In this document: piece by piece, positions 58,969 through 64,000 of the stretch | Layout: every line of letters begins with the position of its first letter | Position numbering within the stretch: position 1 is the first letter of the stretch | Assembly (NCBI RefSeq): GCF_003334305.1 | Contig: NZ_QOWS01000009.1 | From: Escherichia coli | Lineage (GTDB): Bacteria > Pseudomonadota > Gammaproteobacteria > Enterobacterales > Enterobacteriaceae | Strand: one strand, 5' to 3' | Length of the DNA: 64,000 bases | Notes under the pieces: generated by a model | Told to the model about the DNA's origin: nothing | The model's input: the letters and a program-made list of their open reading frames with translations, nothing else | Database searches by the model: none | Program-made: the position numbers and the translations under genes

Positions 58969-59427
58969 GGGGGAGGGGGGAGATTATGGAACTTTGCTCC
59001 TTGTAAGGACTAATTATTTTTGCATATTACTTCATTAGCTGCGATGATTTTTCTTTAATATTCATTATGTTAATAAGTTCTGGATGAGTGTGCTCTCATT
59101 GGATTTTTTATCCGTCTTGTTCTGCCGCAGGATGAGACTATACATCGTCGAGATCGCAATGATGATATGAGTTGTTCCTCCTGCGACGGCTCTAATCAAA
59201 AAAGAGCAGGAGTGCTTTTCCATCTATTGCGATGATGGCTTTATTATCTGAAGGATGACAGTCACATTTAAAAAATATTTAATCTATAGATCACAATGTA
59301 GGGTCATGGAATATATGTATACAACTATTTTCTTCTTCACTTTTAATTATCGTATTCATTATAAAACTAAGTTAAAAAAACTCCTGGAGAGTGAGTTATT
59401 AATATATTTTTAAATAAAATTAAGTTA

Positions 59428-59865
59428 TCATTCATCGATGCACTTTATAGAATCATCAATGGCCATAATAGTACTATTAACTCTCAATTTTATATTTTTA
59501 TCATCACTACAAATATTAACTGAATTTATATCAATGATTTTTTTATTCTTATCTTTTATTTTATTTACTGTTTCAATGCAATCAGCGGCAAGTTGGAGTG
59601 GATTTAGATTTTTCAGATATGGTCTTATGATCTTTCCCTTACTTAATAAATAGCATGTATAGGATTCGGAAAGTCCAGCATCTATTTTGTACCTCATTAT
59701 ATTAGATAAGGATGTGAGAAATTCCTTGTTATCATTCGCAGCCATATATGCCAGTCCGAGTTCAGCCTCTGCGGCCTTACAGGCAAAATAGCTTAGTGAA
59801 CACGCTTTTCGTCCCTCTTTAGTACTGGCTGATATTAGTGCCCATAATATTGCTTTGTCTGCCAA
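59428..59865 (-). CDS. hypothetical protein in AT-rich region (possible orphan immunity gene)
   Basis: 145-aa ORF in an AT-rich tract adjacent to Rhs-tip remnants; no recognisable motif. Confidence 0.4.
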   Translation of the reverse strand: MADKAILWALISASTKEGRKACSLSYFACKAAEAELGLAYMAANDNKEFLTSLSNIMRYKIDAGLSESYTCYLLSKGKIIRPYLKNLNPLQLAADCIETVNKIKDKNKKIIDINSVNICSDDKNIKLRVNSTIMAIDDSIKCIDE

Positions 59866-60231
59866 ATCTAACTCTCTCTGAAATTGTCTTGCAGTAACTG
59901 CACTCGCAGAAATAGAGAAAAAAATACAATTGTTAATAACCTTGCCATATTTTTTAGTCCGTAACTGTTAATGTGCTATCTGGCTCTGAAAATATTAACT
60001 CATTTAATTTTTGCATGTCATTAGATAAACCAGTTATACAACCCTCGGAACAGAATCGAGGTCCTAAAGACGGACCAAAAGCGTTTAAACAACTATGTAT
60101 TGAAAATCCATTGCGATTATAAGTTCCTGTATTAACTGACGGTACTAATCGTATGCCGTCAGGTTTTCTATTGCTTGCTCCCGGGTCATTAACATTCTAA
60201 CTCCATAGGCCTTGAGGTATTGGCCATCTAT

Positions 60232-60560
60232 TTATAAATGTGTACAACGGGGATTATTTTTACATTGCATATTATTACCAGAAGCGACTGGAATACTAAG
60301 CACATCATAAAAATTATCATCACATGGTATATCTGAAACACACGAAAGCATACCTAAAGTTATACTGTATAAACAGGTGGCTAATCCCAAGGGGATCGAT
60401 TCCAGAAATCGGGTTCAACGGATACTGATAAAAATTCCACCTACCTTCCAGCCCAATCGGAGCCTGAGTGTTATACCGCCCCTGCTGCGGTTAATGTTAC
60501 CGATAATAGTTATAGTACAGCCCTGATTCATCATCATACTACTGCTGCGGCAGTCTGATG
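60232..60560 (-). pseudogene. degenerate Rhs core-end remnant with short C-terminal tip
   Basis: Minus-strand frame reads ...[82 protein letters not shown]; in-frame TAA just upstream and a 1-nt indel relative to the intact copies. Confidence 0.6.
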
Positions 60561-60571
60561 AACTATTGCTT

Positions 60572-61033
60572 TTACGGATTCTCCTTATTCTTCCTTCTAT
60601 CCATTCGCTTTAGCTTTTTGAGCTCTTGAAGTTTGCTCTTTGCATCAATATTACCGTTATTTACAGCGAATTCCATCCAATAAATAGCTCTATTCAAATT
60701 ATAATATTCTGATAATGTTGGATTTGTATCTGATAAAAAGACCCCATAATTAAACTGCGCTGTAACATTCCCCTGAGATGCTGATCTTTCCAAGAATCGC
60801 AATTGTTTATCAATATTATTTTTAGTAAAGCAGTAATATTGATATAGTCGAAATGATGCCTCTGAATCACCATGTTGTGATTTATACTTCAGTTTCATCA
60901 GCTTTTCTTCACTTAAATCATAGGTCATTGCTGTAGATCCCATCACACTTTCGTTTTCTTTTATTTTCACATCAGCACCATGCAATTGACCAATAAGAGA
61001 AAAATAAAAAAATAGTAACAAGCATGCTTTCAT
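60572..61033 (-). CDS. yibG: Sel1-like repeat protein with signal peptide (putative immunity protein)
   Basis: 153-aa ORF; signal peptide MKACLLLFFYFSLIGQLHGA; Sel1/TPR-like repeats; immediately downstream of an orphan Rhs tip. Confidence 0.8.
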   Translation of the reverse strand: MKACLLLFFYFSLIGQLHGADVKIKENESVMGSTAMTYDLSEEKLMKLKYKSQHGDSEASFRLYQYYCFTKNNIDKQLRFLERSASQGNVTAQFNYGVFLSDTNPTLSEYYNLNRAIYWMEFAVNNGNIDAKSKLQELKKLKRMDRRKNKENP

Positions 61034-61989: not shown

Positions 61990-62030
61990 CGTGCCGGCGG
62001 GAATCCCCCACTGTGCATAGGCAACTCACG

Positions 62031-62873
62031 CTATGAACGCTTCAGCTTATCAATAGCGGAAGTTATAATTTCATTGTCATCAAACTTGTACAACATAGTA
62101 TCTAAAACAGGAAGTAGCGTTTTATCACCTAATTCACCCGCAGCTTCAATGATATCATCATAAACAGTATTTTTTTTTAACTCATCGCATAAAACAGATA
62201 AAACCCTTTTATCTTTTCTGTAGGAAAGTCCGATTATTGCTTCAATACGGACTTCCTCATTTTTATCCTGAAGCATCTCCACAAAACAATCCCTAATATC
62301 ACTATTATCATATTTATTGATATTTATTGCAAATGCGGCCCAGTTTCTGACATCTCCATTTGGATCTTTTAACAGATTAATCAATAGTGGAATTGTTGCT
62401 TTATCATTGATAACAGAAATAGCAAATGCTGTAGCACGTCTGACATTAGTCGATTTATCAAAAGCAGTAATTTGAGATTGTTCTACTATTTTAGGTGAAT
62501 AAATTTGGTTTTTCTTGCATCGCTGAGCCGTTGACTCGATTGCCGTAGCTCGAACGCAAGCGCTCTTATCATTCAATGCCATATTGTTCAAAATATTAAA
62601 AACATTATCTTCGCATTTTTTGCAAATTTTTATTTGCCCGAGTATAAATGCTCCGATATCTCTACGGATATAATTTTTATCAGAGCAGAACTCAATTGCC
62701 AATCTAACAGCGTCTTGCCCACCTCTTAACTGTAATACTCTGGCAGATGAAATCCTTTTCAAGGAATTGTGATCATCAAGTAAGCGAAATAATTCATCAT
62801 CATTTAGTTTCTTACATTGATTATATAAACCATACTCTTTACTTGCCTTTCTTTTCTGGTATGTATTTGACAT
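62031..62873 (-). CDS. yibA: HEAT-repeat protein YibA (putative immunity / lyase-like)
   Basis: ORF 62031-62888; start trimmed to MSNTYQKRKASKEYGLYNQCKKLNDDELFRLLDDHNSLKRISSARVL; HEAT-like repeats. Confidence 0.8.
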   Translation of the reverse strand: MSNTYQKRKASKEYGLYNQCKKLNDDELFRLLDDHNSLKRISSARVLQLRGGQDAVRLAIEFCSDKNYIRRDIGAFILGQIKICKKCEDNVFNILNNMALNDKSACVRATAIESTAQRCKKNQIYSPKIVEQSQITAFDKSTNVRRATAFAISVINDKATIPLLINLLKDPNGDVRNWAAFAININKYDNSDIRDCFVEMLQDKNEEVRIEAIIGLSYRKDKRVLSVLCDELKKNTVYDDIIEAAGELGDKTLLPVLDTMLYKFDDNEIITSAIDKLKRS

Positions 62874-62977
62874 TGCAGGAACCTCCATAAAGGCTATCTT
62901 TTTCTATCGTTTGACTGTCTGGAGTCCTCCACCTACTCTGCCATCAGCGCACACGATGTTTGATTATCCTTACATAC

Positions 62978-63361
62978 TTATTTTCCGTGGCCAAAATTCA
63001 GAATTCTCCCATCATTTTTGCCTATTTCTATAATAAAAACCCCACCAGCAATTTGGTCTGAGTGAATGGTACCTTCAACAACCCAACTTGTTGTTAACTC
63101 AGTGATTTCGTATGGTTTTTCTTCTTCTGCGGCATCCTGTCCATAACGATTCTTAACATATATCTCAGCTAATTCCAATGCTATAGCTTTATTTTTAACC
63201 AAATTTCTAACGGTATATTTACCTTCACTTTCATACTTGCGCATTATTTTAATATTATTATTACACTGTGCCCATGTGTTGTATGTAAAAACAAACAAAG
63301 ATACAATGACACAGTTCCTAAACAATATTTTTTTACATATTACCATGAACTCTGCAGACAT
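62978..63361 (-). CDS. putative Rhs immunity protein with N-terminal signal-like segment
   Basis: 127-aa ORF; start overlaps rhsA stop by about 29 nt; N-terminus [23 protein letters not shown]. Confidence 0.55.
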
Positions 63362-64000
63362 TAGGTAATCCTTTTCTGTTTGTTATTTCCTTCCCGTGGT
63401 TATCTATTGCTTTAAAATTACCACTGGGCGTACCTAAATAAAATGACTTGATATTGTTATCTTTACTTTTAACTATTTTCTCATCTTTACCTGAAAATAT
63501 TTCGTCCCAATATTCTCCATGACTATCTGCACCATGAGTATGATAAGCTGATACTTTCTCAGTACCATTAGGGCAAGGGCTATTGAATGGATATGATCCT
63601 TTTCTTTCTCCTCGGTTAGGTGCTGTTGAGAAATATCTGCCACTATTATCCTTACATATTAAACCAGCGAACTCTTTATCTTCGCAAATAGATTGGCTAT
63701 TTATTTTATTTAAGGCGTCATATGCGGTGCTATCTATAGAATCAAATTTATCTGGACCTATCATAGCGGATAGTGTGCCGCAAAGACCATTAGTACATGC
63801 CCCCGATTTTGCATCCTCCCACATAGATAAACCCAGGGGGTCGATGTCTGATATCGGATTCAATTGATATCCATACAGGTTCCATCCCCCCTTCAGTCCA
63901 ATCGGATCCTGAGTGATATATCGCCCCTGCAGCGGGTCATAATAGCGGTGGCGGTTGTAATACAGGCCGGACTCCTCATCATACTGCTGCCCCGGCAGCC
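63333..64000 (-). CDS. rhsA: Rhs protein 3' end with polymorphic C-terminal toxin tip; gene continues beyond window end
   Basis: Frame reads ...[58 protein letters not shown] then a 164-aa cysteine-rich tip; the ORF-track 63333-63863 entry is the portion after the first in-window Met. Confidence 0.85.
63857..64000. repeat. Rhs core-end homology block (copy 1 of 3)
   Basis: Near-identical to 61560-61706. Confidence 0.85.

What the first reader, a model, noticed from the sequence alone, without database searches (positions are those of the whole stretch)
59000..64000. Rhs toxin-tip / immunity array with three core-end homology blocks
Downstream of rhsA there are stacked modules on the minus strand: rhsA tip plus a small overlapping ORF, then yibA, then an orphan Rhs fragment plus yibG, then a decayed third core-end plus short tip, then an AT-rich tract with small ORFs. 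The about 145-bp core-end sequence encoding [22 protein letters not shown] recurs at 63857-64000, 61560-61706 and, degraded, at 60405-60545. These repeats are substrates for recombination that would swap a stored tip onto the full-length rhsA. The individual tips and putative immunity proteins carry no motif I can assign to a characterised toxin family, so this is where undescribed effector/immunity biology is most likely in the window.
Basis: partly seen in the sequence, partly recalled or inferred. Interest (0 to 1): 0.7.

Follow-up and report, generated by a model that had tools for sequence, protein, structure and literature searches.

The report
E. coli rhsA displaced toxin-tip array
This is the well-known array of toxin tips and immunity genes downstream of the E. 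coli rhsA-locus Rhs gene; it is common and already annotated, every module can be assigned to a catalogued family, and only the biochemical targets of two tips remain open.

Summary
Three copies of the Rhs core-end sequence lie at 63829-64000, 61535-61706 and 60384-60555, at 87% and 74% identity against at most 42% in shuffles. They head four stacked toxin/immunity modules on the minus strand.

The locus is the E. coli yibF-yibH (rhsA) position. The same arrangement occurs in 1186 of 5426 complete E. coli genomes and is annotated there.

All modules can be assigned:
1. The attached tip is Tox-JAB-2/DUF4329 (JAMM fold) with YhhH (Imm-NTF2-2). This is the K-12 RhsB-type tip, not the K-12 RhsA tip.
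2. yibA (Imm-HEAT, PDB 1OYZ) is an orphan immunity gene. Only 32 nt of its Ntox34 toxin remain.
3. The intact orphan yibJ tip is a clan CD (C80/DUF4347-like) His/Cys peptidase fold, paired with the secreted Sel1-like YibG.
4. The last module is a dead Tlde1-like tip plus a frameshifted Imm57.

Other genomes carry nested alleles at this locus: the core fused to the yibJ tip, or the core with Ntox34 and yibA. This fits the published C-terminal displacement model. Reloading by recombination is plausible for module 3 only.

The mechanism is already known, so interest is low. What stays open is the target of the clan CD and JAB-2 tips, which probably act in the periplasm.

The parts
63829..64000 (-). 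Core-end repeat copy 1. This is the 3' end of the full-length Rhs core ORF, which continues beyond the window end. It encodes ...[22 protein letters not shown]...[10 protein letters not shown].
   Evidence: RHS_core and Rhs_assc_core on residues 1-57. PGAP calls the gene rhsB in the near-identical strain 90-1.
63333..63863 (-). Tip 1, the toxin attached to the core: a Tox-JAB-2/DUF4329 domain after the PxxxxDPxGL motif.
62978..63361 (-). yhhH, the Imm-NTF2-2 immunity gene. It overlaps the end of tip 1 by 29 nt and has a predicted N-terminal signal peptide.
   Evidence: Pfam Imm-NTF2-2 E 6e-25. PGAP names it 'protein YhhH'. The N-terminal hydrophobic segment and the GWA site are conserved in most full-length homologues 65-90% identical.
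62894..62925 (-). A 32-nt remnant of the 3' end of the K-12-type RhsA Ntox34 tip ORF, stop codon included. It is a scar of tip displacement.
   Evidence: Colinearity with the K-12 rhsA locus runs from 58900 to 62925 and ends 32 nt inside the K-12 rhsA ORF. The tip is annotated 'polymorphic toxin type 34'.
62031..62873 (-). yibA, an intact HEAT-repeat (Imm-HEAT) immunity gene. In this window it is an orphan without its toxin.
   Evidence: Full-length match to PDB 1OYZ 'yibA', E 8e-182. HEAT_2. NCBIfam PRK09687, 465 bits.
61535..62013 (-). Core-end repeat copy 2: the ~480-nt Rhs core fragment of the orphan yibJ. It lacks an N-terminus and delivery domains.
   Evidence: 95-96% to main cores. RHS_core positions 1105-1261. 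PGAP: 'missing N-terminus'.
61045..61533 (-). Tip 2, the orphan yibJ tip with an intact reading frame. It is a predicted clan CD (C80/DUF4347-like) cysteine peptidase with a His30/Cys70 dyad.
60572..61033 (-). yibG, an intact Sel1-like repeat protein with a signal peptide. It is the presumed periplasmic immunity to tip 2.
   Evidence: A Sel1-like ORF with a signal peptide follows distant family members as well.
60384..60555 (-). Core-end repeat copy 3, decayed (74% identity, three in-frame stops).
   Evidence: PGAP: 'internal stop; incomplete'.
59954..60383 (-). Tip 3, a Tlde1-like (L,D-transpeptidase-fold) toxin pseudogene. It has a 1-nt indel near DPLG, a 9-nt deletion, a stop, a 1-nt deletion at about 60234 and a second stop.
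   Evidence: The intact homologue in strain GmM066 hits Pfam Tlde1_dom at E 8.5e-8. The repaired window copy hits at E 0.0058.
59428..59948 (-). Imm57 immunity pseudogene. A 1-nt deletion next to a T7 run at 59918-59924 separates the signal peptide from the domain.
   Evidence: PGAP: 'Imm57 family immunity protein, frameshifted'..

Best explanation
The region is the 3' end of the E. coli Rhs element at the yibF-yibH (rhsA) chromosomal position. It is a stack of four C-terminal toxin/immunity modules built by successive 'C-terminal displacement'.

How the array was built (inferred):
- Each incoming cassette carried a core 3' fragment, a new AT-rich tip and an immunity gene. It recombined with the resident core and pushed the previous tip downstream.
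- The proposed order of arrival is Tlde1-like/Imm57 first (now dead), then the clan CD peptidase tip with YibG, then Ntox34 with YibA, and last Tox-JAB-2 with YhhH. The last step deleted all but 32 nt of Ntox34.

What each part does now:
- Only the JAB-2 tip is attached to the full-length Rhs protein. By family knowledge that protein is a T6SS-delivered YD-repeat shell that cleaves off its tip at PxxxxDPxGL.
- YhhH protects the producer cell.
- yibA and yibG remain as intact immunity genes. They can protect against neighbours that still fire Ntox34 or clan CD tips, both of which are common E. coli alleles.
- The intact yibJ tip can in principle be re-attached by RecA-type recombination across the ~480-nt core homology. 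That event would delete JAB-2/yhhH/yibA.

What is shown and what is inferred: the anatomy, the family and fold assignments, the nested alleles in other genomes and the displacement scar are shown here. The order and direction of events, expression of the orphan immunity genes, delivery and toxicity are inferred.
For: - Repeats and modules.
- Locus identity and annotation.
- G+C falls from 0.61 in the core fragment to 0.33-0.40 in the tips.
- Family assignments.
- Nested alleles at the same locus: core-yibJ tip-yibG (L005, L007), core-Ntox34-yibA-orphan yibJ (K-12, L002), and the window type (L001).
- Junction counts among 5426 genomes are 933, 1735 and 1186 respectively.
- The 32-nt Ntox34 remnant between yhhH and yibA is a displacement scar.
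- Decay increases with distance from the core. The core ends are 87% then 74% identical, and the distal tip and its immunity gene are pseudogenes.
- The same block (JAB-2, yhhH, remnant, 5' end of yibA) sits at the K-12 rhsB locus at 99.4% identity.
- Literature: the displacement model and 'position 10' (PMC2935791); orphan reloading by recombination (PMC3967940); RhsA-CT/YibA toxicity and neutralisation as cited in PMC3150448; the toxin-immunity pairings tabulated in PMC3482391.
Against: - The direction of change is not proven. Genomes with the core fused to the yibJ tip could be ancestral or could come from deletion between repeats. The SNP pattern is compatible with both.
- The genome counts come from junction queries at an 80% coverage threshold. 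They were checked at the yibF-yibH locus only for the loci inspected.
- No expression signal was demonstrated for the orphan immunity genes. Promoter-like sites are not enriched, with 14 found against 19.1 expected.
- The delivery machinery (VgrG, PAAR, T6SS) is not in the window, and K-12-like strains lack a T6SS.
- The JAB-2 model has only moderate confidence (pLDDT 70.6).
Confidence: 0.88

Rival explanations
1. This is the first reader's emphasis: a working cassette store. The array is maintained because the core-end repeats let the cell switch which stored tip sits on the full-length Rhs, giving a new weapon on demand.
For: - There are ~480 nt of 95-96% homology between the main core and orphan 2.
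- The orphan 2 reading frame and yibG are intact.
- Natural genomes carry core-yibJ tip fusions at the same locus.
- The window's orphan has a patch of main-core alleles.
- Selection for exactly this event was shown in Salmonella (PMC3967940).
Against: - Only one of the two stored tips could work. Tip 3 and Imm57 are pseudogenes, and their core end is 74% identical with stop codons.
- A simple deletion would also remove yhhH and yibA, leaving the cell sensitive to its siblings. PMC3150448 raises this cost for the analogous CDI arrays.
- The fused alleles may be ancestral rather than products of switching.
- yibA has no stored tip at all.
Confidence: 0.35
2. Immunity repertoire. The selected function of the downstream modules is the orphan immunity genes, yibA and yibG. 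They protect against E. coli neighbours that carry Ntox34 or clan CD tips. The tip fragments themselves are hitch-hiking relics.
For: - yibA and yibG are intact and 99% conserved, while yibA's toxin has been deleted to 32 nt.
- The yibJ fragment carries an internal stop in K-12.
- The cognate toxins are frequent in the species: Ntox34-yibA in 1735 genomes and core-yibJ tip in 933 genomes.
- Orphan immunity expression is documented for CDI (PMC3150448), and orphan immunity is noted for Serratia Rhs (PMC10539506 abstract).
Against: - Imm57 has been allowed to decay.
- No promoter evidence was obtained.
- The window's yibJ tip frame is still intact, which a pure relic model does not predict.
Confidence: 0.5
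3. Internal toxin-antitoxin function. The orphan tip and its immunity gene are expressed from promoters inside the rhs sequence and act as a type II TA-like growth regulator inside the producer cell.
For: - This was shown for Salmonella main and orphan Rhs (PMC7043789).
- The yibJ ORF has an in-frame GTG at 61989.
Against: - YibG, YhhH and Imm57 carry signal peptides. Their toxins therefore probably act in the periplasm, which a cytoplasmically made orphan tip would not reach.
- No enriched promoter signal was found.
Confidence: 0.08

Closest known systems
E. coli K-12 rhsA element (rhsA-yibA-yibJ-yibG plus distal pseudogenes; Hill laboratory; 'position 10' of Jackson et al. 2009)
   Same: The chromosomal position is the same (yibF...yibH-yibI-mtlA). 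The sequence is 99.3% identical from 58900 to 62925. yibA, the orphan yibJ, yibG, the decayed third core end and the frameshifted Imm57 are all shared.
   Different: In the window the attached tip is the JAB-2/DUF4329 tip with yhhH, which in K-12 sits at the rhsB locus. The K-12 RhsA Ntox34 tip is reduced to 32 nt. The window's yibJ frame is intact, whereas PGAP flags an internal stop in K-12.
Salmonella Typhimurium rhs main/orphan locus (Koskiniemi 2014; Starsta 2020)
   Same: A full-length rhs gene is followed by an orphan core fragment with a different tip and its own immunity gene. Homologous recombination across the shared core sequence loads the orphan tip.
   Different: The tips belong to different toxin families. 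The window has more modules (four), including one with only the immunity gene left and one fully decayed. No experimental data exist for this allele.
Tox-JAB-2 / Imm-NTF2-2 pair of Zhang et al. 2012 (Pfam DUF4329, PF15631)
   Same: Tip 1 and YhhH match both Pfam models strongly. The predicted fold is JAMM/MPN and the E...HxH...SxxD residues are present.
   Different: Zhang et al. suggested a nuclease role, and later in-silico papers label the domain an RNase. Here the conserved signal peptide of YhhH points to a periplasmic site of action. That is an inference and was not tested.
Clan CD cysteine peptidases of the C80/DUF4347 type (MARTX and TcdA/TcdB CPDs; P. aeruginosa T6SS effectors Tce1/Tce2)
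   Different: No Pfam C80, C13 or DUF4347 model reaches significance; only E 1e-3 to 0.1 in a few members. The domain here is an Rhs C-terminal tip with a dedicated secreted Sel1-like immunity protein. Tce1 and Tce2 have no immunity gene and were not toxic when expressed in E. coli; Tce2 impairs yeast growth.
Tlde1/Tldi1 (Salmonella T6SS L,D-transpeptidase-like effector) and the Tox-LD-peptidase/Imm57 pair
   Same: The intact homologue of tip 3 hits Pfam Tlde1_dom. The downstream gene is Imm57, and this pairing is listed in Zhang 2012.
   Different: The window copies are pseudogenes. The motif is H-x15-SEGCI, with Glu where Tlde1a has the second His of HX14-17(S/T)HGCh. The domain is fused to Rhs rather than standing alone.

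Membership tests
Rhs polymorphic toxin C-terminal tip / immunity array | Conserved RHS core end terminating in the PxxxxDPxGL motif, followed by a variable tip | tested here: met
   The three copies read [20 protein letters not shown] and [10 protein letters not shown]. RHS_core and Rhs_assc_core hits end exactly at the motif.
Rhs polymorphic toxin C-terminal tip / immunity array | Small immunity ORF immediately downstream of each tip, and a drop in G+C at the core/tip junction | tested here: met
   yhhH overlaps tip 1 by 29 nt, yibG starts 11 nt after tip 2, and Imm57 starts 5 nt after tip 3. G+C falls from 0.61 to 0.33-0.40.
Rhs polymorphic toxin C-terminal tip / immunity array | Orphan fragments share only 3' core homology and lack an N-terminus and delivery domains | tested here: met
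   Orphan 2 homology is limited to ~480 nt, RHS_core positions 1105-1261 of 1261. PGAP: 'missing N-terminus'.
Rhs polymorphic toxin C-terminal tip / immunity array | The tip is toxic and is specifically neutralised by the cognate downstream protein | not testable with these tools
   Only literature is available, and only for the absent RhsA Ntox34 tip with YibA (Vlazny & Hill 1995, as cited in PMC3150448).
Tox-JAB-2 / DUF4329 | Match to PF14220 and a JAMM/MPN fold with E...HxH...SxxD metal-site residues | tested here: met
Imm-NTF2-2 (YbbC/YhhH) | Match to PF15631 and a position directly after a Tox-JAB-2 tip | tested here: met
   Pfam E 6e-25. The PGAP BlastRule names it YhhH.
Imm-HEAT (YibA) with Ntox34 toxin | HEAT-repeat protein matching YibA | tested here: met
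   PDB 1OYZ, E 8e-182 over 280 of 280 residues.
Imm-HEAT (YibA) with Ntox34 toxin | Cognate Ntox34 tip encoded immediately upstream | tested here: not met
   Only the last 32 nt of the Ntox34 ORF remain, at 62894-62925. yibA is an orphan immunity gene in this window.
Clan CD cysteine peptidase (C80 / DUF4347 / C13-like) | Caspase-haemoglobinase fold with a catalytic His followed by Cys on successive strand ends | tested here: met
Clan CD cysteine peptidase (C80 / DUF4347 / C13-like) | Significant sequence match to an existing Pfam or MEROPS family model | tested here: not met
   The query has no Pfam hit. Among 58 members only sub-threshold hits appear (C13 in 7, DUF4347 in 6, C80 in 4; best E about 2e-3). 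PGAP names it DUF8616. It is therefore fold-level kin and not a member of C80, C13 or DUF4347.
Clan CD cysteine peptidase (C80 / DUF4347 / C13-like) | Peptidase activity that depends on the His/Cys dyad | not testable with these tools
   This needs expression of wild type and H30A/C70A mutants.
Tlde1 (L,D-transpeptidase-like T6SS effector) | Match to PF10908 and the catalytic motif HX14-17(S/T)HGCh | tested here: inconclusive
   The intact E. coli homologue hits at E 8.5e-8 and the repaired window copy at E 0.0058. The motif present is H-x15-S-E-G-C-I, with Glu replacing the second His.
Tlde1 (L,D-transpeptidase-like T6SS effector) | Intact coding sequence | tested here: not met
   There are two stops and a 1-nt deletion within the domain, plus an indel at the DPLG junction.
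Imm57 | Match to PF15596, and an intact ORF | tested here: inconclusive
   The domain match is strong, E 8e-47. However, a 1-nt deletion at about 59925 separates the start codon and signal peptide from the domain.

The most novel reading that the evidence does not exclude
Two of the tips in this array may be envelope-targeting enzymes of unknown substrate, rather than the nucleases or RNases that in-silico papers assume.
- The yibJ-type tip would found a large family of periplasm-acting clan CD cysteine peptidase Rhs toxins (at least 729 cluster representatives). They would be neutralised by secreted Sel1-repeat immunity proteins.
- The Tox-JAB-2/DUF4329 tip would be a periplasmic JAMM-type (iso)peptidase.
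The case rests on signal peptides in the cognate immunity proteins YibG and YhhH and their homologues. No experimental characterisation of either family was found in the searched literature.
Probability: 0.45. Interest if true: 0.45.

Novelty: already known. Interest (0 to 1): 0.22.

Why it matters
As a genome feature it is ordinary. The rhsA-locus tip array was the founding example of Rhs elements. Displacement and reloading by recombination are published, and this exact allele is annotated in more than a thousand complete E. coli genomes.

Its practical value is as a clean natural series of three nested alleles at one locus, each present in hundreds to thousands of genomes. That series could be used to date and count tip-switching events.

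It also flags two abundant E. coli Rhs toxin domains whose substrates have never been determined: the clan CD peptidase-like yibJ tip and the JAB-2 tip. Their secreted immunity proteins suggest cell-envelope targets.

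Tried and rejected
- Sequence searches of the two intact tips against PDB chains gave nothing usable. There were no hits for tip 2 and only chance internalin hits for tip 1.
- NCBIfam gave no family for any tip, for YhhH, for the repaired Tlde1-like sequence or for Imm57. YibG had only one far-sub-threshold hit (MerG, E 0.004, 17 bits against a cutoff of 350).
- The word-indexed protein search found only Escherichia and Salmonella relatives of tip 2. The exhaustive profile search was needed to see the family.
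- The promoter and terminator scan was not enriched over shuffles and says nothing about orphan gene expression.
- Rfam found nothing in 56900-64000 and there are no tandem repeats.
- I tried to decide from diagnostic SNPs in the ~480-nt core homology whether core-yibJ tip fusions are ancestral or deletion products. The informative sites lie only in the 3' half, so both histories fit.
- I considered that YhhH might start at the internal Met40 and be cytoplasmic. Conservation of the N-terminal hydrophobic segment and the GWA cleavage-like site in most diverged full-length homologues argues against this. An 84-aa Imm-NTF2-2 homologue in a metagenome contig (its organism was not identified) lacks a signal peptide, so the point is not settled.
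- I rejected the idea that 59000-59950 holds novel small genes. Most of it is the Imm57 pseudogene.

Full report
**Observation**

The repeat search on 56000-64000 returns one 172-nt direct-repeat family. Its copies lie at 63829-64000 (87% identical to the reference), 61535-61706 (the reference) and 60384-60555 (74%). In 200 shuffles of the region the best 172-nt match never exceeded 42% identity, so the repeats are real.

All three copies encode, on the minus strand, the Rhs core end ...[22 protein letters not shown]...PxxxxDPxGL. The third copy is interrupted by stop codons. Copy 2's homology to Rhs cores is longer than stated, extending to about 62013 (roughly 455-470 nt at 95-96% identity). 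Copy 1 runs off the window end.

**What the locus is**

The 5.1-kb stretch is 99.9% identical over its full length to E. coli strain 90-1, and 5356 of 5426 complete E. coli genomes match at least part of it. In the annotated record the gene order is selA-yibF, then on the opposite strand a full-length rhs gene, yhhH, yibA, an Rhs fragment, yibG, a second Rhs fragment and a frameshifted Imm57, and finally yibH-yibI-mtlA. This is the classical rhsA position, 'position 10' between yibF and yibH in Jackson et al. 2009.

K-12 is colinear with the window at 99.3% identity from 58900 to 62925 only. Beyond that point K-12 has the RhsA tip directly upstream of yibA, annotated 'polymorphic toxin type 34'. 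The window instead has a different tip plus yhhH.

**Module by module (minus strand)**

1. Tip 1 (63333-63863) matches Pfam DUF4329 at E 1e-39.
   - E52, H96-x-H98 and S112-x-x-D115 are invariant in the small alignment.
   - This is Tox-JAB-2 of Zhang et al. 2012, who pair it with Imm-NTF2-2. The overlapping ORF 62978-63361 matches Imm-NTF2-2 at E 6e-25 and is named YhhH by PGAP.
   - Window 62527-64000 is 99.4% identical to the K-12 rhsB locus. There yhhH is likewise followed, at the same spacing, by a yibA-like HEAT gene that ISEc1 truncates.
2. Positions 62894-62925 are the last 32 nt of the K-12-type RhsA ORF. yibA (62031-62873) matches PDB 1OYZ over its full length at E 8e-182. It is the Imm-HEAT partner of Ntox34. 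RhsA tip toxicity and its neutralisation by yibA were reported by Vlazny & Hill 1995, as cited in PMC3150448. In the window, yibA is an immunity gene without its toxin.
3. The orphan yibJ is a ~480-nt core fragment (RHS_core positions 1105-1261) plus an intact 162-residue tip (61045-61533).
   - The tip has no Pfam, NCBIfam or PDB sequence match. PGAP calls it DUF8616.
   - An exhaustive profile search finds 729 cluster representatives at E<=1e-3. Of the 135 best domains, 118 are C-terminal and 75 follow a DPxGL motif. Some giant proteins carry 4-6 copies.
   - One His and one Cys are the only invariant columns in a 58-sequence alignment.
   - Individual members give only sub-threshold Pfam hits to C13, DUF4347 and C80. 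The profile aligns the His and Cys with the legumain HG...C(E)SG motifs, but that hit is not significant (E 0.42).
   - The tip is therefore fold-level kin of C80/DUF4347 peptidases, but not a member of those families.
   - yibG (60572-61033) is a Sel1/TPR-like protein with a typical signal peptide. A Sel1-like ORF with a signal peptide also follows a Salmonella homologue. Another follows a distant full-length VgrG-PAAR-Rhs homologue. The pairing is therefore conserved, and the immunity protein is exported.
4. The third core end is followed by a broken reading frame.
   - The intact form, 135 residues in strain GmM066, matches Pfam Tlde1_dom at E 8.5e-8.
   - The window copy has a junction indel, a 9-nt deletion, two stop codons and a 1-nt deletion.
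   - Its motif is H-x15-SEGCI, against HX14-17(S/T)HGCh in Tlde1a.
   - The following gene matches Imm57 at E 8e-47 once a 1-nt deletion beside a T7 run is repaired. Tox-LD-peptidase/Imm57 is again a catalogued pair.

**Comparison across E. coli**

Three nested alleles occur at this locus:
- core-yibJ tip-yibG-[dead Tlde1]-Imm57 (strains N779 and MB06231);
- core-Ntox34-yibA-[orphan yibJ]-yibG-... (K-12);
- core-JAB-2-yhhH-[32-nt Ntox34 scar]-yibA-[orphan yibJ]-yibG-... (the window).

Junction-specific queries find these in 933, 1735 and 1186 of 5426 genomes. The counts are by junction at an 80% coverage threshold. The chromosomal position was verified only for the loci inspected. Strain GmM066 shows yet other tips stacked upstream.

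Three features match the published C-terminal displacement model (PMC2935791): the nesting, the scar, and the increase in decay with distance from the core.

The repeats are also active recombination substrates. The window's orphan carries main-core alleles at eight consecutive diagnostic sites, where the K-12 orphan and the fused genes carry the other allele. That pattern suggests gene conversion. Whether the fused alleles are ancestral or deletion products could not be decided from these SNPs.

**Mechanism**

By family knowledge, the full-length Rhs protein encloses its tip and releases it at PxxxxDPxGL, and it is delivered by a T6SS. Only the JAB-2 tip is deployable from this allele. YhhH protects the producer cell.

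yibA and yibG are best explained as retained immunity against Ntox34-firing and clan-CD-firing E. coli, which are common in the species. The intact yibJ tip could be reloaded by recombination across ~480 nt, as was shown for Salmonella (PMC3967940). The cost would be the loss of yhhH and yibA. Module 4 is dead.

YhhH, YibG and Imm57 all carry signal peptides. The N-terminal segment of YhhH is conserved in most of the diverged full-length homologues examined. This suggests that three of the four toxins act in the periplasm. That fits Tlde1. It is at odds with the 'RNase' label that in-silico papers give to DUF4329. This point is an inference.

**Novelty**

The element, its mechanism and three of the four toxin/immunity pairings are in the literature, and the allele itself is annotated in over a thousand genomes. 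None of the tips present has been characterised biochemically apart from the Tlde1 family.

The residual open point is modest. The substrates of the clan CD-like yibJ tip and of Tox-JAB-2 are unknown. The paper search returned no paper containing 'DUF8616'.

Noticed in passing
window 62527-64000 versus L006:8308-9781 (K-12 rhsB locus): The whole block (core end, JAB-2 tip, yhhH, 32-nt Ntox34 scar, first ~350 nt of yibA) is 99.4% identical between the window's rhsA locus and the K-12 rhsB locus, where ISEc1 cuts yibA short. Either the block moved between the two rhs loci by recombination using core and yibA homology, or rhsB is a copy of a window-type rhsA allele.
   Followed up: partly
window 61695-61741 (alignment columns 272-318): The window's orphan yibJ core fragment carries eight consecutive main-core-type alleles, where the K-12 orphan and the fused genes carry the alternative. 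This looks like a gene-conversion patch from the full-length core.
   Followed up: partly
window 59918-59925: The Imm57 frameshift is a 1-nt deletion directly beside a T7 homopolymer inside the signal-peptide coding region. Strain GmM066 has a different lesion, a 5-nt deletion corresponding to window 59562-59566. The gene has therefore been inactivated independently at least twice.
   Followed up: partly
window 58969-59427: A very AT-rich spacer (G+C down to 0.23) lies between the end of Imm57 and the convergent end of yibH. It holds only short ORFs, such as 59065-59223 (52 aa), and no family match was sought. It could be the remains of still older modules.
   Followed up: no
proteins P0028-P0032, P0036, P0040: Giant proteins of 3000-6800 residues carry 4-6 internal copies of the yibJ-tip-like His/Cys domain. 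This architecture is unlike the single C-terminal Rhs tip. Their origin and function were not examined.
   Followed up: no
L012:441-695 and 866-1987: In a metagenome contig an 84-aa Imm-NTF2-2 protein without a signal peptide sits just upstream of an RHS-type protein that ends in the yibJ-like domain. The same two families are again neighbours in a distant organism.
   Followed up: no
window 18222-18260 (+): This is the only Rfam gathering-score hit in the whole window: a JUMPstart (ops) element at 55.2 bits. It is typical of the leader of an LPS-core or polysaccharide operon and is unrelated to this finding.
   Followed up: no
window 57467-58968 (+) and 55017-56930 (-): Ordinary flanking genes yibI (DUF3302), yibH (HlyD family) and mtlA fix the chromosomal position of the array.
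   Followed up: yes
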